From: a virus
Taxonomy: Duplodnaviria > Caudoviricetes
Virus record (IMG/VR): IMGVR_UViG_3300027859_000018
Coordinates: 1 to 55,442 of that record
Strand: one strand, 5' to 3'
DNA length: 55,442 nucleotides
Of this stretch, positions 42,723 to 49,738 are shown piece by piece (the first letter of the stretch is position 1; the number at the start of each line of letters is the position of its first letter). The notes beneath the pieces are model-generated. The model ran no database searches, had not been told where the DNA came from, and saw nothing but the letters and a program-made list of their open reading frames with translations. The position numbers were made by a program, and so were the translations under genes.

Positions 42723-43487
42723 TTAAAGGTAATCAAGCACTTGCGAGCTATCTACATTGTCTATTAATACTTGTATTGCATCACGTTTTATCTGTGAAAT
42801 ACGTACGTGAGCAGTGTTAACATTAATATCTAATTTAGCCGCAACTTCATTAGCCGAATGCTTATCACAGTCAAGTCCAAAGCTTAACCTAAGCACTTCA
42901 TATTGTTGTATGTTTAAATACTTTTTCATTAACTGTAATAAATAAGCATTTAATAAACCTATATTATATGGTTCTGACTTATCTACAACTTGATAAGCCA
43001 TATTTTCATTTTGATTAGGGTTAGCATCAATACTAGAAAATACACTATTAAAAAACATTGCAACCATTTTTTCATCTTTTGGATTGCGTCTTATTTCATT
43101 TAGCTTATGTTCTGGTATGCGTATGTCGCCTCTGTTAATATCTACGGCTCTACGTATCGCGCCCTTTATTCTTTTTGATATAAATGATTTTAAAGTTTTT
43201 TCTTGGTCATCAGACTTCTTTAATGTGTCTCGGTCTAATTTATTAACAGCAGCACATAATCCTAAATTACCTTCCTGTAATAAATCATTTATACTTAATA
43301 CACCTGACGCTTGGTCTGAGGTGGATTGTTTTCTCGCTAGTGTTTCAACAAGCGGTAAAAAGTTAATAGTTATTTCTTCGTCATTTAAAAATGTATAATC
43401 TCCATCAACTGGTTTTCTAACTTTTTCCAGTTTAGCTTTTACATCTTCTTTATATCTAACGTAGTTAGCTATGTTATACTTTCTCAT
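42723..43487 (-). CDS. Phage-encoded sigma70-family factor
   Basis: Region 2 DLLQEGNLGL-x-x-AV...RI-x-x-AI, IRIP-x-H, region 4 VL-x-L-x-FGL...EVA...RISQI. Confidence 0.85.
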   Translation of the reverse strand: MRKYNIANYVRYKEDVKAKLEKVRKPVDGDYTFLNDEEITINFLPLVETLARKQSTSDQASGVLSINDLLQEGNLGLCAAVNKLDRDTLKKSDDQEKTLKSFISKRIKGAIRRAVDINRGDIRIPEHKLNEIRRNPKDEKMVAMFFNSVFSSIDANPNQNENMAYQVVDKSEPYNIGLLNAYLLQLMKKYLNIQQYEVLRLSFGLDCDKHSANEVAAKLDINVNTAHVRISQIKRDAIQVLIDNVDSSQVLDYL

Positions 43488-44961: not shown

Positions 44962-45239
44962 AATTTCTTTTTTAAATAATCAATTCTTTTTTTAATTACT
45001 CCAGCATGTTCATACTCTTCAGTTTCTTCATACTTTTTCATTACTATTTCTAATTGCTTTATTTCATCTCTTATTACATCTGTAGATGAAGTAAAAGTTA
45101 AATGTGAAAATCTATCTTCTTTAACTTCCTTTTGTCGCAAGACATCAGCTCCGTAAGTAGCTGTTTCAGGATTAATAAATTCGTCATATAAATCTTCTTT
45201 TATACGATTATACAACGCTTGATATTCTTCTTCACTCAT
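44958..45239 (-). CDS. Hypothetical protein with C-terminal UVR-like coiled coil (likely start MSEEE)
   Basis: EEYEHAGVIKKRI resembles the UvrB/C motif; the upstream Met lies inside a promoter-motif copy. Confidence 0.6.
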   Translation of the reverse strand: MSEEEYQALYNRIKEDLYDEFINPETATYGADVLRQKEVKEDRFSHLTFTSSTDVIRDEIKQLEIVMKKYEETEEYEHAGVIKKRIDYLKKKL

Positions 45240-45245
45240 ATTTAT

Positions 45246-45277
45246 ATTATCCATATTGATTCGTATTTAGCTTGTAA
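45246..45277 (-). promoter_or_regulatory. Tripartite motif copy
   Basis: ATTATCC-atattgat-TCGTATT-tagctt-GTAA on + strand. Confidence 0.75.
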
Positions 45278-45737
45278 AATTAGGGTCTTCACATTTCATT
45301 AATCTAGTTTTACCATTAGCAAAGTCTGTATAATCCATATCTTCTGTGTACTTTTCAAGTATTTGCTCGGGTGTCATAACAAATACACACTGCTCTGTAT
45401 ATCTGTCGTGACAAGCAATCATAGTTTTATCTCTATCACCAGCCCATATAATATATGTATATTGATGGTCTATATTGTCTACGTCTGCATATAAATAGCA
45501 ACTGTCGTAGTAATGGTCGTGCACTAGCTTAGCCGCCATTGCTGAACCATCTTGTCTGTTATTTACTTTTAACCAGTTTGCTAATTGTACTGCTTGCCAT
45601 TCCGGATAACCATCATGGTGTAAATACATATGCACATAACTGTGTTTAGTAACGTCTTCAGGTGATATAGATAATCCTTTGCCTTCACCTCTTGCATGTC
45701 GTCTATCAACGACCATTGTTAAGTTTCTTGTTGCCAT
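45267..45737 (-). CDS. Phage protein with Y-x-H-x-DGYPE motif (likely start MATR)
   Basis: MATR...YLHHDGYPE...YTY pattern of a widespread uncharacterised phage family. Confidence 0.7.
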   Translation of the reverse strand: MATRNLTMVVDRRHARGEGKGLSISPEDVTKHSYVHMYLHHDGYPEWQAVQLANWLKVNNRQDGSAMAAKLVHDHYYDSCYLYADVDNIDHQYTYIIWAGDRDKTMIACHDRYTEQCVFVMTPEQILEKYTEDMDYTDFANGKTRLMKCEDPNFTS

Positions 45738-45738
45738 A

Positions 45739-46191
45739 TTATTCTTCGTATTCGTGACCGTCGTCAACTAATTCATCAATTTTATCTTGATGTAAATCGT
45801 CATATACATCAGACCACCATTGTTCTAATTCAAGGGTGAAGTCATGTTCCATATCATCCCATAGATGAGGTTCAATCCATATATTTCCACCCTGTATCAT
45901 ATGTTCAACAGCTTGCTCAGACCATGCTTGATAGTCTTCATAATAATAACCGTCTTGACATACGTAAGGTTTTTCATCTTGAGTACACCAGTATATATCG
46001 TAACCATCACATGTTGATTCACTATATATTTTTAAGTCATGCTTGTTATCAAGCCAATCACTGGTGTTATCCATATGACCACCATATTCTGAGCCAATAT
46101 ATTCTATAATCCAGTTGGCGTCTGGTTCTTGCATAATGCCGTCTTCGTTTAGTTTTTCAACGACATCATCGTAATTTAATTTTTCACTCAT
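45739..46191 (-). CDS. Highly acidic hypothetical protein
   Basis: Asp/Glu/aromatic-rich 150 aa. Confidence 0.7.
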   Translation of the reverse strand: MSEKLNYDDVVEKLNEDGIMQEPDANWIIEYIGSEYGGHMDNTSDWLDNKHDLKIYSESTCDGYDIYWCTQDEKPYVCQDGYYYEDYQAWSEQAVEHMIQGGNIWIEPHLWDDMEHDFTLELEQWWSDVYDDLHQDKIDELVDDGHEYEE

Positions 46192-46448
46192 AATTTATAA
46201 TTTAATTTAATTCCGTCTTTTTCGATTAAGCTTAATAAATATTTGTAAAGCTCACGCTCTTGTCTACAACCAGCTAACACTTGCTCGTGTAACTCTCTGG
46301 GTATGAAGGGGTTATAGCTTTCATTTTTTAAGTCTAGTTCTTGTTCAGCAATTTTTCTGTCAAGACCTTTAATCGTTGCCCACATTTTTGTGTGTGCTTT
46401 TTCTTTTATTATATCACTTGTTTTCATCAATTCTATTATCCGTTCCAT
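46188..46448 (-). CDS. Hypothetical protein (true start possibly MKTSD)
   Basis: ORF; its 5' part overlaps a promoter-motif copy. Confidence 0.6.
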   Translation of the reverse strand: MERIIELMKTSDIIKEKAHTKMWATIKGLDRKIAEQELDLKNESYNPFIPRELHEQVLAGCRQERELYKYLLSLIEKDGIKLNYKL

Positions 46449-46466
46449 ATCGTTTTTAGTCTGTAA
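46435..46466 (-). promoter_or_regulatory. Tripartite motif copy
   Basis: ATTATCC-gttccata-TCGTTTT-tagtct-GTAA. Confidence 0.7.
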
Positions 46467-46617
46467 TAATTTCAGGATTATCAGTTGCCATCCATTCTAT
46501 ATTACTAAGTGAATGACCTTGCGAAGAAATGTAATCTTCTTCGTTCATACTTATACTCCTCATGTCGTATCTATAGACTTGGCCGTCTATAAAATCTAAT
46601 ACAAATATATATTTCAT
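46456..46617 (-). CDS. 53-aa hypothetical protein (start MKYIFV)
   Basis: The longer ORF-track start runs through the tRNA; ATG 46617 has an A-rich leader. Confidence 0.65.
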   Translation of the reverse strand: MKYIFVLDFIDGQVYRYDMRSISMNEEDYISSQGHSLSNIEWMATDNPEIITD

Positions 46618-46631
46618 AATTTTAATTTTAG

Positions 46632-46703
<72 letters not shown>

Positions 46704-47097
46704 ATATTTAGACCCTGCGGAATTTTACCGCGACCACGTTTGAACCACGTTGCTAAACTTACTGGTCTGTGTAACAAACAAACACAATATTATGAGTGAG
46801 GCGGACAGGACTGGAATGTTAGAGATGCCCCGCGCCTAGCGGGAACGACTTACACTCTTTTATCTGTTTATCCTGTCTTTCTTACCGTCATCGAGCCTCT
46901 CTTTGCAACCCCGTCGGGTACTACACGCCAACGACCACGCATTTGTGGGTACGACGTCGAGCCTTTAATCTGGTCTTCCAACCTTAAACCTCACTCCGCA
47001 ATTCGAGTCGCTCATAGCTTCACGTAACACATCCCACACTCTTTCAGTGGTTCGAAACATACTTCGCTAGCGGTGCGCTTCTATTGCAATTCGTTCA
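46704..47097 (-). ncRNA. Candidate large structured ncRNA (core 46794-46996)
   Basis: ORF-free, GC-rich, promoter-motif copy directly upstream, nested complementary segments (GAGTGAGG/CCTCACTC, GACAGGA/TCCTGTC, CCCGC/GCGGG, CCAC/GTGG). Confidence 0.7.
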
Positions 47098-47102
47098 TAT
47101 AT

Positions 47103-47134
47103 ATTATCCGTTATACTTCGTATTTAGTTTGTGA
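47103..47134 (-). promoter_or_regulatory. Tripartite motif copy upstream of the ncRNA-tRNA unit
   Basis: ATTATCC-gttatact-TCGTATT-tagttt-GTGA. Confidence 0.75.
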
Positions 47135-47298
47135 ACAACTCGCTGGCGGATATGATGTATAGCATCGGTGAAATCGTCGCCGTCTAGCTTATCTACAATC
47201 GTATCATCTACCGCCCATGCAATATTGTGGTCTATTAGCTCATCTAATACTTCTACCACACAATCTGCGATATGTTCTAACTCTTTCATTTTACTCAT
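47104..47298 (-). CDS. Hypothetical early protein
   Basis: 64-aa ORF coupled to the upstream gene. Confidence 0.65.
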   Translation of the reverse strand: MSKMKELEHIADCVVEVLDELIDHNIAWAVDDTIVDKLDGDDFTDAIHHIRQRVVHKLNTKYNG

Positions 47299-47518
47299 CT
47301 TTATTTGTGTATATTGGTTTATTTATTTTTCTTACTATAATTTCCATAGTCCATGACCCATCTTCTTGTATACCAAGTATTTCAAATTTACCTGTATTCA
47401 TTACTTTAGTAATTTTACCTCCAATATCCGATCGAAACGGTATAGTTACAATTTCGCATTCTTCAGTTATTGGCTTTACTAAATCATTTGGGCTTCTCAT
47501 AAATGTAAATGTTCTCAT
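47291..47518 (-). CDS. Hypothetical early protein (likely start MRTFTF)
   Basis: ATGA overlap with the upstream gene at 47515-47518. Confidence 0.6.
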   Translation of the reverse strand: MRTFTFMRSPNDLVKPITEECEIVTIPFRSDIGGKITKVMNTGKFEILGIQEDGSWTMEIIVRKINKPIYTNKDE

Positions 47519-47736
47519 AATGTTTCGTATTCTTTTAATTCGTCTTGTATTGTTAATTTTAATTCTTTCGCAACATAGTTTATATGTTTCGTAGTAGTAA
47601 CAGAAGAGGACATACCGTGTACTCTCCATTTTACTTTATATAATTTATCACCGTCTATTTCGGCTACTAAAGTATCATAGGAATATACATTATTACCTAT
47701 TACTTTTAAATTCATTTTATATCTTTCTAATCTCAT
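47515..47736 (-). CDS. Small early phage protein (VYSY-x-T-x-VA...S-x-TT-x-KHINY)
   Basis: Recognisable motif of an uncharacterised phage family. Confidence 0.7.
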   Translation of the reverse strand: MRLERYKMNLKVIGNNVYSYDTLVAEIDGDKLYKVKWRVHGMSSSVTTTKHINYVAKELKLTIQDELKEYETL

Positions 47737-47746
47737 AGTATATAGT

Positions 47747-47917
47747 TTAATAGCAAATGTCGCACGGTATATGTACGTTGTTTACTTGTCCAGTTATTAA
47801 TAAAAATAGCATATAACCTATTCCTGTAAATGCCATTGTTCCTAGCGAGATAATAAATGCATGAATCATTACGTTACCTATTTTTGCTAATGTTAAGTGT
47901 TTAAATATTTGTTTCAT
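47747..47917 (-). CDS. 56-aa membrane peptide, paralog of 50450-50620
   Basis: MKQIFKHLTLAKIGNVMIHAFIISLGTMAFTGIGYMLFLLITGQVNNVHIPCDICY. Confidence 0.65.
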   Translation of the reverse strand: MKQIFKHLTLAKIGNVMIHAFIISLGTMAFTGIGYMLFLLITGQVNNVHIPCDICY

Positions 47918-48104
47918 CTTTTTCTATTCTTTTTACCAATCCTCTGATTGCGTTAATAAAATCGTCTGCGTTATCTTCTTTTCTTCTTTGATAATTGCTA
48001 TAGTTTAATGTACCGTTAGCTCTCATCTCGGTGAACACAGCTTCACCTTGTTCGTATTGGGTTAAAGCTTGCGCTAGTTCCAGTATTATATTTATTTTTG
48101 TCAT
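47901..48104 (-). CDS. Hypothetical early protein
   Basis: 67-aa ORF with ATGA coupling. Confidence 0.65.
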   Translation of the reverse strand: MTKINIILELAQALTQYEQGEAVFTEMRANGTLNYSNYQRRKEDNADDFINAIRGLVKRIEKDETNI

Positions 48105-48325
48105 CTTATATTAAATGCTTTATGTGCGTTATATTTAGCGTATTCAGCAACACCCATTCGGAATTGCCATTCTCTTCTTCTATAGTTGATGTCAGTGCAC
48201 CACTTTTTCCAAGCTATAGTTCTGGTTGATTCACCATACTTTTTCTCAAACTCAATTACTTGATTAAGTTTGTCAGCAATTTTTTCTGCTGGATAATCTT
48301 TATATTCTTTATTCATCATATTCAA
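48101..48325 (-). CDS. Hypothetical early protein
   Basis: 74-aa ORF, WKKWC-x-D-x-x-YR-x-x-EW. Confidence 0.65.
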   Translation of the reverse strand: MNMMNKEYKDYPAEKIADKLNQVIEFEKKYGESTRTIAWKKWCTDINYRRREWQFRMGVAEYAKYNAHKAFNIR

Positions 48326-48407
48326 ATTCTGTGTGTTCTTTACAATCAGAGCATAGACCTGTGTTATATAGTTCTGTAGCTCCGCAACATTCGCTTACTC
48401 TATTCAT
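48309..48407 (-). CDS. 32-aa zinc-ribbon-like peptide
   Basis: MNRVSECCGATELYNTGLCSDCKEHTEFEYDE. Confidence 0.6.
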   Translation of the reverse strand: MNRVSECCGATELYNTGLCSDCKEHTEFEYDE

Positions 48408-48630
48408 CTTTTAATATATTAGTTCCATAAAGCATGGAGTTAATACCTAAGTCAGCTTTATTAATATTAGTAAATAATATTAAATCTTTTATAGTTGAAA
48501 TCTTTAATTCAGACCATAATACTTTAGACATTAGTGTGTATTTGATTGTACTTACACTGTCGTATTGTTTAGAGCTTTTATCTAGTTGCTCTTTGATTGT
48601 TGGTTTTAATTGTTCGTAAATGTTTGTCAT
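48400..48630 (-). CDS. Hypothetical early protein
   Basis: 76-aa ORF directly downstream of a promoter-motif copy. Confidence 0.7.
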   Translation of the reverse strand: MTNIYEQLKPTIKEQLDKSSKQYDSVSTIKYTLMSKVLWSELKISTIKDLILFTNINKADLGINSMLYGTNILKDE

Positions 48631-48647
48631 AATTATTATTTTATTTT

Positions 48648-48679
48648 ATTATCCGTTTTAATTCGTATTTAACACGTAA
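48648..48679 (-). promoter_or_regulatory. Tripartite motif copy
   Basis: ATTATCC-gttttaat-TCGTATT-taacac-GTAA. Confidence 0.75.
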
Positions 48680-48843
48680 AATCGTTTTGTAAATACTTTC
48701 TTTTGAGGTAGCTTATACCTTCTATTCCCCATACCTTTACACTCACCGTATATTTTAAGTACTTCAGTATGTCTGAATCTTCTTTGTTTCTTTTTGTCTT
48801 CTACATATTGCAGAAGCTCTCTCATATTAGTTGGTGCCTTCAT
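48658..48843 (-). CDS. Basic hypothetical early protein
   Basis: 61-aa ORF. Confidence 0.6.
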   Translation of the reverse strand: MKAPTNMRELLQYVEDKKKQRRFRHTEVLKIYGECKGMGNRRYKLPQKKVFTKRFYVLNTN

Positions 48844-49207: not shown

Positions 49208-49223
49208 AACTTTAATTTATTTT

Positions 49224-49255
49224 ATTATCCATTTAGTTTCGTATTTAGTTTGTAA
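49224..49255 (-). promoter_or_regulatory. Tripartite motif copy
   Basis: ATTATCC-atttagtt-TCGTATT-tagttt-GTAA. Confidence 0.75.
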
Positions 49256-49681: not shown

Positions 49682-49706
49682 TTTATTATTTTTTAATTAC
49701 ACTTAT

Positions 49707-49738
49707 ATTATCCAAATATCTTCGTAATTCGTTTGTAA
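49707..49738 (-). promoter_or_regulatory. Tripartite motif copy
   Basis: ATTATCC-aaatatct-TCGTAAT-tcgttt-GTAA. Confidence 0.75.

What the first reader, a model, noticed from the sequence alone, without database searches (positions are those of the whole stretch)
46704..47134. Candidate new large structured RNA with its own promoter motif, upstream of tRNA-fMet
Seen: a promoter-motif copy (47103-47134) is followed by ~390 nt with no plausible ORF and visibly higher GC than the genome. A 203-nt core is closed by GAGUGAGG/CCUCACUC (46989-46996 with 46794-46801). It contains GACAGGA/UCCUGUC (46871-46877 with 46804-46810), hairpins CCCGC/GCGGG and CCAC/GUGG, a repeated AGGCUCGA (46891, 46957), and a possible pseudoknot between loop UGGAA (46976-46980) and UUCCA (46812-46816). 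The 5' domain is bracketed by a repeated CGAAUUGC and has CACU-GAAAG-AGUG and CGCUAGCG elements. Known: large phage ncRNAs such as GOLLD and ROOL often sit beside tRNA genes. I see no tmRNA, RNase P or intron hallmarks. From memory only, the size and the AGGUUU-x-x-GGUUG-x-AAG start loosely recall the raiA motif RNA. Inference: an undescribed or highly diverged structural or catalytic RNA, released by tRNA processing. This is the best novelty candidate in the window.
Basis: partly seen in the sequence, partly recalled or inferred. Interest (0 to 1): 0.87.

Follow-up and report, generated by a model that had tools for sequence, protein, structure and literature searches.

The report
Nested RNA modules beside phage tRNA
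The GC-rich, gene-free stretch before this marine phage's initiator-type tRNA is not one big RNA but a row of small, separately folding RNA modules that related phages shuffle and plug into one another, and none of them matches a described RNA family.

Summary
Window 46704-47103 (- strand) is the only ORF-free gap of 11 with high GC (0.48 against 0.32). It follows a phage promoter-like motif found 6 times against 0.03 expected and precedes tRNA-Met. Rfam 15 matches only the tRNA.

The interpretation needs changing. Each module has conserved junctions, variable tips and helices that covary:
- A: 41 distinct sequences, score 0.192 against 0.072 shuffled, 0/500.
- E: 8 of 15 pairs with compensatory changes.
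- C: 5 of 15 pairs.

The modules occur alone, in other orders, or nested in each other's hairpin tips. A is present in only 4 of 24 protein-defined relatives. It also stands alone in phages whose proteins are 30-64% identical.

Contigs from four marine RNA libraries carry E-A and A-C.

Function is unknown. The likeliest reading is a tRNA-linked operon of stable, trans-acting RNAs. These are new RNA families with an unusual nested architecture.

The parts
47100..47127 (-). Phage promoter-like motif CTAAATACGAA-N7-GGATAATATA directly upstream of the RNA array. It overlaps the stop codon of the 64-aa ORF 47104-47298.
   Evidence: 6 copies, all on the - strand between 45.2 and 49.7 kb, against 0.03 expected. 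The same motif recurs in relatives' loci.
46998..47087 (-). Module E. An irregular hairpin with outer helix GCAAU/AUUGC, conserved internal-loop strands GCGCACCGCUA and AUGAGCGACUCGA, and a swappable tip (sub-module U, about 47066-47020).
   Evidence: 13 distinct sequences: 15 pairs, 8 with changes on both sides, 97.9% of cells paired, score 0.544 against 0.192 shuffled, 0/500. E is top-level in 11 zones and nested in A in 2. Tip U also occurs inside module M in L206 and in L007.
46794..46996 (-). It has closing helix P1, junction UUUAAGGUUGGAAG, variable arm VR1, AGAAA, helix P3 (GACAGGAU/GUCCUGUC) whose loop holds AUAAACAGA, variable arm VR2 and CAUUCCAG, and a candidate pseudoknot UGGAA/UUCCA.
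   Evidence: 58 instances, 41 distinct. 96.7% of cells paired, score 0.192 against 0.072 shuffled, 0/500, slid controls 0.007-0.046. Minimal forms are 90-98 nt. Model R1 scores the window copy 75.9 bits, E 1.8e-15.
46989..46996 (-). P1 5' strand (GAGUGAGG), pairing with 46794-46801.
   Evidence: 6 of 8 pairs show changes on both sides. Variants are GUGAGG/CCUCAC, GUAGGG/CCCUAC, GAGAGG/CCUCUC and AGGAGG/CCUCCU.
46976..46980 (-). UGGAA, candidate pseudoknot partner of UUCCA at 46812-46816.
   Evidence: Both are invariant in 41 of 41 sequences. My filters required them, so this is consistent with pairing but not tested.
46888..46969 (-). Sub-module I (AUUAAAGGC ... GGCUCGAUGA), nested in A's arm VR1. 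It carries sub-module J and a CCCG/CGGG hairpin.
   Evidence: I lies inside A in 5 zones, inside B in 1 and outside both in 5, some of those inside the tRNA-like element.
46925..46957 (-). Sub-module J (ACGUCGUACCCAC..GUGGUCGUUGGCGU), nested in I.
   Evidence: 14 distinct VR1 sequences: 11 pairs, 2 with changes on both sides, for example CCAC/GUGG to CCGC/GCGG. J lies directly in A in 14 zones and in I in 4.
46870..46877 (-). P3 5' strand (GACAGGAU), pairing with 46804-46811.
   Evidence: One pair switches between G-C (20), U-G (14) and U-A (1), with 6 cells unpaired. The other pairs are invariant, partly because the search pattern fixed them.
46821..46859 (-). Sub-module K in A's arm VR2 (AAGAGUGUAAGUC [variable tip CCCGC/GCGGG] GCAUCUCU).
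   Evidence: 15 of the 17 distinct K-type VR2 sequences were aligned: the AGAG/CUCU stem is kept, with A-U to G-C in 2. Tips differ in length and sequence. K lies in A in 20 of 21 zones.
46768..46786 (-). Small spacer hairpin UGUG-UUUGUUUGUUA-CACA between A and C.
   Evidence: Read from the sequence. A similar GUGUUUGUUACAC precedes module B in L003 and L004. No covariation test was made.
46711..46767 (-). Module C. A closing helix GACC/GGUC, the single strand AGUAAGUUUAGCA, a variable hairpin, and a conserved hairpin GCGG-UAAAAUU-CCGC.
   Evidence: 5 distinct sequences: 15 pairs, 5 with changes on both sides, 100% of cells paired, 0/500 shuffles reach the score. C occurs without A in L003, L005 and L337.
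46631..46703 (-). tRNA-Met (CAT) with initiator-type features, the last RNA of the array. The next ORF starts at 46617.
   Evidence: ARAGORN. Rfam tRNA 64.6 bits, with the 1:72 pair flagged non-standard.

Best explanation
What it is. The 390-nt gap is a tRNA-linked 'stable-RNA operon' of an uncultivated marine podophage. By terminase likeness the phage belongs with phages of Flavobacteriia.

Transcription probably starts at the phage promoter-like motif (47127-47100). The transcript then carries, in order:
- module E, with tip module U;
- module A, a pseudoknotted multi-helix core with I, J and K plugged into its two variable arms;
- a spacer hairpin;
- module C;
- an initiator-type tRNA-Met.

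Each module folds on its own and belongs to its own sequence family. Related phages carry different subsets, in different orders. Hairpin-type modules (B, E, I, O, R, F, M) are often inserted into the tip of another module's hairpin, so that both folds survive.

Shown here:
- the structure of E, A and C, by covariation;
- the independence and nesting of the modules;
- the strand;
- the absence of any Rfam match;
- presence in RNA libraries.

Inferred, not shown:
- The top-level modules are cut apart at the AU-rich spacers by the host enzymes that mature tRNA precursors.
- They persist as stable RNAs and act in trans as binding platforms or decoys for host or phage factors during early infection.
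- Their fast turnover between close relatives is what one sees at phage host-takeover and counter-defence loci.

My odds:
- about 0.85 that this is an array of autonomous structured-RNA modules;
- about 0.25 for the trans-acting scaffold or decoy role specifically.
For: Composition and setting:
- It is the only GC-rich ORF-free gap of 11.
- A promoter-like motif lies directly upstream, 6 copies against 0.03 expected.
- The tRNA lies directly downstream on the same strand.

Structure:
- A: 41 distinct sequences, 96.7% of cells paired, 60 cells changed on both sides against 20.8 in shuffles, 0/500.
- E: 8 of 15 pairs compensatory.
- C: 5 of 15 pairs compensatory.
- J and K show modest covariation.
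- U-G and G-U pairs are kept (41 of 41 at one P3 pair). On the other strand these would be mismatches.
- The single-sequence minimum-energy fold recovers P1, P3, the K stem and E's helices.

Independence:
- Model R1 finds A in 4 of 24 protein-retrieved distinct relatives.
- Zones without A exist, such as B-C-D-tRNA in L003.
- A stands alone after a protein gene and before a terminator-like hairpin with a U run in L075 and L096.
- Those phages share only 30-64% protein identity with the window, yet A's junctions are nearly identical.

Nesting counts:
- B: 17 top-level, 5 in A.
- E: 11 top-level, 2 in A.
- I: 5 in A, 1 in B.
- F: in B and in D.
- O: in A and in B.
- Triple nesting F-in-B-in-A occurs in L077.
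- Minimal tips are GAAA-type loops, such as GCC-GAAA-GGC.

Not coding: the variable arms differ by lengths that are not multiples of three (13, 14, 23, 30, 42, 43 ... nt).

RNA libraries:
- A 260-nt contig (X1, 3 differences) spans the E-A border.
- A 291-nt contig (X4) spans A, the hairpin and C.
- 16 of the 24 listed runs are on record as RNA.

tRNA link: 21 of 41 distinct A copies sit within about 15 nt of a tRNA-Met (6) or a tRNA-like element (15).
Against: - No RNA ends, processing sites or abundance could be measured. The RNA-library data are contigs, which show neither strand nor ends, and such libraries can hold DNA.
- The single-sequence fold is not better than shuffles (z -0.54).
- Most A sequences were fetched with an exact 17-18-nt pattern and filtered on flanking motifs. 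The invariance of P3, the junctions and the pseudoknot is therefore partly built in.
- C rests on 5 sequences.
- E's window copy has a tip seen in only 2 other loci.
- The shuffle control can be beaten by related sequences without any structure, as the tool itself notes. The slid controls argue against that here.
- No partner protein, target or defence system is identified. The C loop has no antisense match in the window beyond chance (5 matches against 4.26 expected).
- The small 62-aa ORF that precedes the array in most relatives is missing in the window.
Confidence: 0.6

Rival explanations
1. One large 'ornate' RNA of the GOLLD/ROOL kind. On this view the whole 390 nt, perhaps with the tRNA, works as a single molecule, and the modules are merely its exchangeable peripheral domains. 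It might assemble into multimers as GOLLD and ROOL do.
For: - It has the same setting as GOLLD and ROOL: phage-encoded and beside tRNAs. GOLLD env-38 is marine and lies next to a Met-tRNA, GOLLD has a variable half, and tRNAs can lie within it (passages of 10.1101/2024.12.08.627333).
- RNA-library contigs bridge E-A and A-C.
- GAAA-type tips are frequent. By recalled knowledge such tips often make tertiary contacts.
Against: - No part is common to all relatives. A is in 4 of 24, C in 6 zones and E in 13.
- A stands alone between a gene and a terminator-like hairpin in L075 and L096.
- Module order changes between relatives.
- There is no GOLLD or ROOL match even at E up to 10.
Confidence: 0.15
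2. Cis-acting parts of the tRNA precursor. On this view they are leader structures that protect, fold or process the transcript. Module A could be a self-cleaving ribozyme or a block to exonucleases that sets the ends of the tRNA or of neighbouring RNAs.
For: - 21 of 41 distinct A copies lie within about 15 nt upstream of a tRNA-Met or a tRNA-like element.
- A has a three-helix junction with a candidate pseudoknot and about 40 invariant unpaired or junction nucleotides. That degree of conservation is typical of ribozymes and ligand binders.
- By recall, other phages use ribozymes next to tRNAs.
Against: - 19 of 41 A copies are followed by something else: other modules, a promoter motif, a terminator-like hairpin or a gene.
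- In the window A is separated from the tRNA by a hairpin and module C.
- No known self-cleaving class matches.
- Bacterial RNase P needs no such leader (established knowledge).
Confidence: 0.12
3. Selfish miniature mobile elements. On this view hairpin-shaped DNA or RNA parasites insert into hairpin tips and spread between co-infecting phages, with no use to the phage.
For: - The distribution among close relatives is patchy.
- Insertions are nested up to three deep.
- Module sequences are near-identical in phages with 30-64% protein identity.
Against: - There is one copy per genome and one locus. The zone matches only itself in the window.
- The modules sit in one tRNA-linked zone rather than being scattered.
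- Compensatory changes show selection on the RNA fold.
- No transposase or homing enzyme was found among the 12 neighbouring ORFs scanned against Pfam.
- None of 120 genome contigs pattern hits was a true copy.
Confidence: 0.08
4. Not an RNA gene at all. It could be a DNA-level element such as an origin or a recombination site, a set of tiny peptide genes, or a chance GC island.
For: - The single-sequence fold is not significant.
- Small frames of 27-55 aa exist.
Against: - Covariation that keeps G-U pairs on one strand only.
- Arm lengths that break any reading frame.
- The 31-aa frame spans the E-A border, which most relatives lack.
- Conservation reaches across distant phages.
Confidence: 0.03

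Closest known systems
GOLLD and ROOL RNAs (large ornate phage and prophage RNAs near tRNA islands)
   Same: - They are phage-encoded, next to tRNA genes, richly structured with pseudoknots, and of unknown function.
- GOLLD has a conserved part and a variable part, and can hold tRNAs (passages read in 10.1101/2024.12.08.627333).
   Different: - There is no sequence or structure match in Rfam 15, even at E up to 10.
- The size differs: the minimal unit here is 90 nt, while many GOLLD members exceed 800 nt.
- There is no universal core here. The units are autonomous, re-ordered and nested.
- Multimer formation was not tested.
Phage T4 RNA C and RNA D (small stable RNAs of unknown function)
   Same: - They are non-tRNA stable RNAs made by a phage, with function still unknown (passages of PMC9697503).
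- That they are encoded in the T4 tRNA gene cluster and matured with the tRNAs is recalled, not read here.
   Different: - T4 has two fixed RNAs, not a shuffled and nested set.
- T4 RNAC and RNAD are classed as late RNAs, whereas this array lies among early-type promoter motifs.
- No sequence comparison was made.
tmRNA, and tRNA-like domains in general
   Same: - In relatives, though not in the window, a tRNA-like element has a 7-bp acceptor stem, a T arm, G3:U70 and A73. The place of the anticodon arm is taken by a variable, module-bearing arm.
- By recall this is the same topology as tmRNA's tRNA-like domain with its insert.
   Different: - ARAGORN and Rfam call no tmRNA in the window, and in none of the relatives' loci that were scanned (27 loci; 13 loci).
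- There is no tag reading frame.
- The elements are 66-123 nt long.
- The window's own array ends in a normal cloverleaf tRNA-Met.
tRNA-linked small RNAs released by tRNA-processing enzymes, such as the tRNA-miRNA units of murine gammaherpesvirus 68 (recalled)
   Same: Structured non-tRNA hairpins are transcribed in one unit with a tRNA or tRNA-like element, so that tRNA enzymes can free them.
   Different: - That is a eukaryotic virus using RNA polymerase III and tRNase Z.
- The order differs: there the hairpins follow the tRNA, here they precede it.
- Processing here is only inferred.
Candidate structured RNAs predicted in IMG/VR (10,006 csRNAs, PMC10690425)
   Same: They use the same data source (IMG/VR phage contigs) and the same kind of evidence (covariation). 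They include tRNA-like candidates (passages read).
   Different: The passages read name no Bacteroidota or Flavobacteria motif and no modular or nested motifs: 0 occurrences of these words.

Membership tests
GOLLD RNA | Match to the Rfam covariance model (conserved 3' domain) | tested here: not met
   No match at gathering score in the whole window or in 13 relatives' loci. None at E up to 10 in 46500-47400 or around a minimal module A.
ROOL RNA | Match to the Rfam covariance model | tested here: not met
   Same searches, no match.
raiA motif RNA | Match to the Rfam covariance model | tested here: not met
No match.
tmRNA | tRNA-like domain formed by the two ends, plus a tag reading frame and pseudoknots | tested here: not met
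   ARAGORN finds one tRNA and no tmRNA, and Rfam finds none. The window has no acceptor or T-arm pair other than the tRNA itself.
RNase P RNA, group I and II introns, 6S RNA, HEARO/omega RNA | Match to the Rfam models; for omega RNA also a neighbouring nuclease gene | tested here: not met
   No Rfam match. Neighbouring ORFs have no nuclease or reverse-transcriptase domain of that kind.
Known self-cleaving ribozyme classes (hammerhead, twister, twister-sister, pistol, hatchet, HDV-like) | Match to the class model | tested here: not met
   No match at E up to 10.
Self-cleaving ribozyme (any class, new ones included) | Site-specific self-cleavage | not testable with these tools
   This needs an in-vitro cleavage assay.
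Structured non-coding RNA (generic) | Helices kept by compensatory changes in independent sequences | tested here: met
   - A: 7 of 21 pairs with double changes, 0/500 shuffles reach the score.
- E: 8 of 15 pairs.
- C: 5 of 15 pairs.
Structured non-coding RNA (generic) | Transcribed, with defined ends | tested here: inconclusive
   Contigs from 4 RNA libraries of 4 studies carry parts of the zone. Contigs show neither strand nor ends, and DNA carry-over is possible.
tRNA-operon stable RNA (T4 RNA C/D type) | Encoded in one transcription unit with tRNA | tested here: met
   The order on one strand is promoter-like motif, modules, tRNA, with no terminator-like site found in 46000-47600.
tRNA-operon stable RNA (T4 RNA C/D type) | Released by tRNA-processing nucleases as a stable species | not testable with these tools
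   This needs Northern blots or end mapping.

The most novel reading that the evidence does not exclude
These phages may carry a combinatorial 'construction kit' of at least 15 autonomous RNA module families that plug into each other's hairpin tips.

At its centre would be module A, a 90-nt pseudoknotted core with about 40 invariant nucleotides kept across phages whose proteins are only 30-64% identical. Such a core could be a new ribozyme, a new ligand- or protein-binding fold, or a self-assembling RNA.

Together with an alanine-type tRNA-like mini-RNA in relatives, the kit would be a fast-evolving RNA arsenal for host takeover or counter-defence. That would be an RNA counterpart of the protein anti-defence islands of phages.
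Probability: 0.2. Interest if true: 0.85.

Novelty: new variant of a known kind. Interest (0 to 1): 0.68.

Why it matters
Phage non-coding RNAs next to tRNA genes (GOLLD, ROOL, T4 RNA C and D) are a long-standing puzzle. They are conserved and abundant, and their function is unknown.

This locus adds several new RNA families, and the way they are built is itself informative:
- The same small folds are re-used as free units or as plug-ins inside other folds. Natural variation has therefore already marked the module borders, the minimal forms (90 nt for A) and the dispensable tips. That makes design of probing, binding, cleavage and cryo-EM experiments straightforward.
- The rapid gain and loss of modules among close relatives, in an early-gene region, points to a role at the phage-host interface.
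- If the modules are decoys or scaffolds, they would widen the known counter-defence repertoire from proteins to structured RNAs in marine Bacteroidota phages, an ecologically large group.

If they turn out to be selfish elements, they would be an unusual case of parasites that live inside RNA hairpins.

Tried and rejected
Searches and tests that led nowhere:

- **Rfam.** Four searches gave only tRNAs: the whole window at gathering score, 46500-47400 at E up to 10, 13 relatives' loci, and a minimal module A at E up to 10. The best other hit was 24 bits against a gathering score of 178, which is noise.
- **Single-sequence folding.** Neither strand folds significantly better than shuffles.
- **Phage records.** blastn of the zone against 50,697 records matched only the tRNA part. 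The 166-aa neighbour protein has no match there, so no cultured relative is in hand. The nearest record by terminase (MW202828.1, 61%) was opened for its first 30 kb but not followed further.
- **First exact 26-nt pattern in viral contigs.** 0 hits.
- **Genome-contig scan with the module-A pattern.** Absence from bacterial genomes is not shown.
- **BLAST of the zone against 401 genomes of the family of one Flavobacteriaceae-named locus.** Only 20-32-nt matches at E of 7e-4 or worse per genome, which I take as chance.
- **Antisense target for C's conserved single strand in the window.** 5 matches against 4.26 expected.
- **Pfam and PHROGs on neighbouring ORFs.** No RNA enzyme, nuclease or ligase was found that would point to a partner.
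- **Sigma-70-type promoter and terminator scan.** Promoter-like sites were at chance level (7 against 6.0 expected), and there were no terminators.
- **RNA-library cover.** In the four runs laid, the flanking genes (45200-46603 and 47072-48700) had no cover apart from one short unrelated piece. Depth at the tRNA bin comes largely from other organisms' tRNAs.
- **The 'goes back 221' joint** (47065 to 46845). It appears in contigs of two studies, with 30 nt repeated at both ends in one of them. I considered a circular RNA or a tandem repeat. I think it more likely that strains share modules: tip U also follows a K-like segment in L007, which would close a cycle in the assembly graph. This is not settled.
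- **Hammerhead-like reading** of CUGACGAG...GAAAC in a relative's sub-module I. Rejected by eye, because no stem II can form.
- **K-turn reading of E's internal loop.** Rejected, because there are no tandem G-A pairs.
- **Literature.** Searches found no description of these modules. The supplements of PMC10690425, which list 8,495 IMG/VR candidate RNAs, could not be seen and may hold some of them.
Full report
**1. What is at the coordinates**

Read on the - strand, the window has the following in order:
- a 64-aa ORF ending at 47104;
- a gap of about 400 nt;
- a tRNA-Met (CAT) at 46703-46631;
- a small ORF whose ATG lies at 46617.

The gap has no frame longer than 37 aa on the tRNA strand. Its GC content is 0.46-0.53 against 0.28-0.33 around it. 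Of the 11 ORF-free gaps of 120 nt or more in the window, it is the only one above GC 0.36: 414 nt at GC 0.48, against a genome mean of 0.319.

The motif CTAAATACGAA-N7-GGATAATATA lies at 47127-47100. It occurs 6 times, always on the - strand, between 45.2 and 49.7 kb, where 0.03 would be expected. Its function as a promoter is inferred.

On its own the sequence does not fold better than shuffled versions (z = -0.54 on the - strand, -0.13 on the + strand). Nothing can be concluded from the fold alone.

**2. Known families**

Rfam 15 finds only the tRNA in each of these searches:
- the whole window at gathering scores;
- 46500-47400 at E up to 10;
- 13 relatives' loci;
- around a minimal copy of the core, where the best other hit was 24 bits against a gathering score of 178.

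ARAGORN finds no tmRNA. raiA, GOLLD, ROOL, tmRNA, RNase P, introns, 6S and the known self-cleaving classes are therefore not met as memberships.

**3. The phage and its relatives**

The window is an IMG/VR virus record, estimated 86% complete. Its genes include a large terminase, ribonucleotide reductase, primase-helicase and GroEL. The terminase is 45% identical to those of the Flavobacterium phages listed (vB_FspP_elemo); Cellulophaga phages are also among the 87 matching records, and the best match is an uncultured record at 61%.

No phage record in the collection carries the gap's sequence or the 166-aa neighbour protein. With that protein I fetched 26 related loci from IMG/VR, and 4 more with the next protein. 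18 of the 27 loci scanned have a tRNA-Met at the matching place. Many show raised GC for 200-400 nt upstream of it.

**4. The key finding: a mosaic, not one RNA**

blastn of the gap against the relatives gave only patches, and different patches in different relatives. Reading the upstream regions side by side shows recurring units with conserved ends and variable middles.

The window holds three top-level units:
- **E**, 47087-46998.
- **C**, 46767-46711, preceded by a small spacer hairpin.

Relatives hold other sets. Examples are B-C-D-tRNA (L003), F-A-G-tRNA (L013) and B-E-tRNA (L004).

A covariance model of A's core finds A in the window and in 4 of 24 distinct protein-retrieved relatives, and in none of the others at E up to 1. 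There is thus no core common to all.

**5. More copies of A**

I searched for A's central motif in three collections:
- IMG/VR gave 66 rows, 10 of them new with A's flanks.

Together these yield 58 copies of A, 41 of them distinct.

Some copies stand quite alone. In L075 and L096, A follows the stop codon of a protein gene and is followed by a terminator-like hairpin with a U run. These phages share only about 30% (primase-helicase) to 64% protein identity with the window. Even so, A's junction sequences are almost unchanged.

**6. Structure of A**

On the 41 distinct sequences (alignment A4) I counted P1, P3 and the candidate pseudoknot:
- 96.7% of cells form standard pairs, against 89.5% in shuffles.
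- 60 cells have changes on both sides, against 20.8 in shuffles.
- The covariation score is 0.192 against 0.072, reached by 0 of 500 shuffles.
- With partners slid by 1-3 columns, pairing falls to 31-48% and the score to 0.007-0.046.

P1 carries most of the signal. 6 of its 8 pairs changed on both sides, with variants GUGAGG/CCUCAC, GUAGGG/CCCUAC, GAGAGG/CCUCUC and AGGAGG/CCUCCU.

P3 has one covarying pair: G-C in 20 sequences, U-G in 14, U-A in 1, and unpaired in 6.

The pseudoknot UGGAA/UUCCA is invariant in 41 of 41. This says nothing either way, and my filters required both words. The search pattern also fixed part of P3.

The kept U-G and G-U pairs fit only the tRNA strand.

The two variable arms range widely:
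- VR1 runs from a bare GCC-GAAA-GGC hairpin (13 nt) to 178 nt.
- VR2 runs from 6 nt to 105 nt.

The minimal A is therefore about 90 nt. Arm lengths are not multiples of three, so this is not coding sequence.

**7. Structure of E and C**

- **E** (13 distinct sequences): 15 pairs, 8 with changes on both sides, 97.9% of cells paired, score 0.544 against 0.192, 0/500 shuffles. Its outer helix changes completely between copies (GCAAU/AUUGC in the window, CAACC/GGUUG, AGUC/GACU and UUAC/GUAA elsewhere), while the internal-loop strands stay fixed.
- **C** (5 distinct sequences): 15 pairs, 5 with changes on both sides, 100% of cells paired. This sample is small.
- Inside A, sub-modules J and K show a few compensatory changes.

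The single-sequence minimum-energy fold of the window already contains P1, P3, the K stem and E's helices.

**8. Nesting**

A motif-based parse of all loci gives these counts:

| Module | Top-level | Nested |
|---|---|---|
| A | 44 zones | never |
| B | 17 | 5 in A |
| E | 11 | 2 in A |
| I | 5 | 5 in A, 1 in B |
| J | 0 | 14 in A, 4 in I |
| K | 1 | 20 in A |
| F | 3 | 1 in B, 1 in D |
| O | 3 | 2 in B, 1 in A |
| M | 9 | 1 in B |
| R | 4 | 5 in A |

Further points:
- L077 has F inside B inside A.
- The window reads E(U) A(I(J) K) hairpin C tRNA.
- Tip U of the window's E recurs inside M in L206 and in L007.
- The parse uses simple motifs and may miss or mis-assign diverged copies.

**9. RNA libraries**

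24 runs were listed as holding part of the stretch, 16 of them on record as RNA. I laid the contigs of four marine RNA libraries from four studies on 45200-48700:
- A 260-nt contig with 3 differences covers 46794-47053, spanning the E-A border.
- A 291-nt contig covers 46713-46994, spanning A, the hairpin and C.

Contigs show neither strand nor ends, and DNA may be present in such libraries. This shows presence in RNA libraries, not proven transcription.

Two contigs from two studies join 47065 back to 46845. I cannot explain this with certainty (see Tried and rejected).

**10. What it most likely is and does**

Shown:
- a one-strand array of separately folding RNA modules between a repeated promoter-like motif and an initiator-type tRNA;
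- modules that are shuffled and nested among relatives;
- modules that match no Rfam 15 family.

Inferred:
- co-transcription with the tRNA;
- cutting at the AU-rich spacers by the host's tRNA-maturing nucleases;
- action in trans as stable binding platforms or decoys.

The arguments for a trans-acting, host-directed role are indirect:
- the early-region setting;
- very strong conservation of unpaired junction nucleotides across distant phages;
- fast turnover of the set between close relatives;
- frequent pairing with a tRNA or tRNA-like element (21 of 41 distinct A copies).

I give 0.85 to the architecture and about 0.25 to this role.

The rivals are:
- a single ornate RNA (0.15), weakened by the lack of any common core;
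- a cis-acting leader or ribozyme (0.12);
- selfish hairpin elements (0.08), weakened by the single copy per genome and by selection on the fold;
- no RNA gene at all (0.03).

**11. Comparison with the known, and novelty**

The closest in kind are GOLLD and ROOL, which share the setting, and T4 RNA C and D, whose function is still unknown. The differences are the absence of homology, the small autonomous units and the combinatorial nesting.

My literature searches found no description. A catalogue of IMG/VR candidate RNAs (PMC10690425, passages read) may list some of these in supplements that I could not open.

I rate this a new variant of a known kind: phage tRNA-linked structured RNAs, but from new families and with an architecture not described for that kind.

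Noticed in passing
Relatives only, e.g. L002:5062-5163, L077:1390-1477, L090 (- strand), L206:980-1045; none in the window: A tRNA-like element that ARAGORN does not call. It has a 7-bp acceptor stem GGGCGUG/CACGUCC (or GGGAGUG/CACUUCC), a T arm of GGUUCGAAUCC type, and A at position 73. The place of the anticodon arm is taken by a variable arm that can hold modules, and the length is 66-123 nt. 32 of the 48 rows listed have this GGG(C/A)G(U/C)G acceptor with G3:U70 and A73; 2 further rows have G:U with other stems. By recall, G3:U70 with A73 is the alanine identity set and the topology is that of tmRNA's tRNA-like domain. 15 of 41 distinct A copies lie just upstream of it.
   Followed up: partly
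window 45243-45270, 46432-46459, 47100-47127, 48645-48672, 49221-49248, 49704-49731 (all - strand): The repeated motif CTAAATACGAA-N7-GGATAATATA occurs 6 times against 0.03 expected, before small early-region genes. It also occurs in relatives' loci. It is probably a phage-specific promoter class; its 3' part loosely recalls the Bacteroidota -7 element (recalled).
   Followed up: partly
L038:5197-5385 and 60 other loci; absent from the window: A 62-aa cysteine-rich ORF (MKCKC...HKAWRRK) lies between the promoter-like motif and the RNA array in 61 of 225 loci searched. The window lacks it (best tblastn E 1.3), and module E sits in its place. It has no Pfam family. It could be a partner of the RNAs.
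   Followed up: partly
window 46845 joined to 47065, in RNA-library contigs of runs X6 and X11: Two contigs from two studies 'go back 221' bases, joining the K segment of module A to the tip of module E. In X6 the same 30 bases stand at both ends of the contig. This could be a circular or tandem form, or an assembly cycle caused by modules shared between strains.
   Followed up: partly
Relatives' loci, e.g. L003:4940-5158, L013:287-520, L030:4925-5260, L146, L206: At least ten further module families are not present in the window (B, D, F, G, M, N, O, Q, R, S). Each has conserved ends and variable tips. None matched Rfam in the 13 loci scanned.
   Followed up: partly
Module A copies in L013, L038, L102, L108, L133, L144, L146, L156, L166, L203, L206, L209: A 14-nt form of arm VR2 (GAnnnCGUACGnCA) occurs in 12 of 12 distinct copies whose VR1 holds sub-module J directly, and in no other copy. 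It is complementary to parts of J (GUCGUAC, or UGGCGU). This suggests a long-range or alternative pairing.
   Followed up: no
window 46631-46703 (- strand): The tRNA-Met has a non-standard 1:72 pair (A opposite A) and three G-C pairs at the base of the anticodon stem. By recalled rules these mark an initiator tRNA. The relatives' tRNAs share the A1/A72 pattern.
   Followed up: no
window 42723-43487 (- strand): A 254-aa ORF has a weak, below-cut-off match to sigma-70 region 2 (E 7e-4, 19.7 bits against a cut-off of 24). If real, it could be the factor that reads the repeated promoter-like motif.
   Followed up: no
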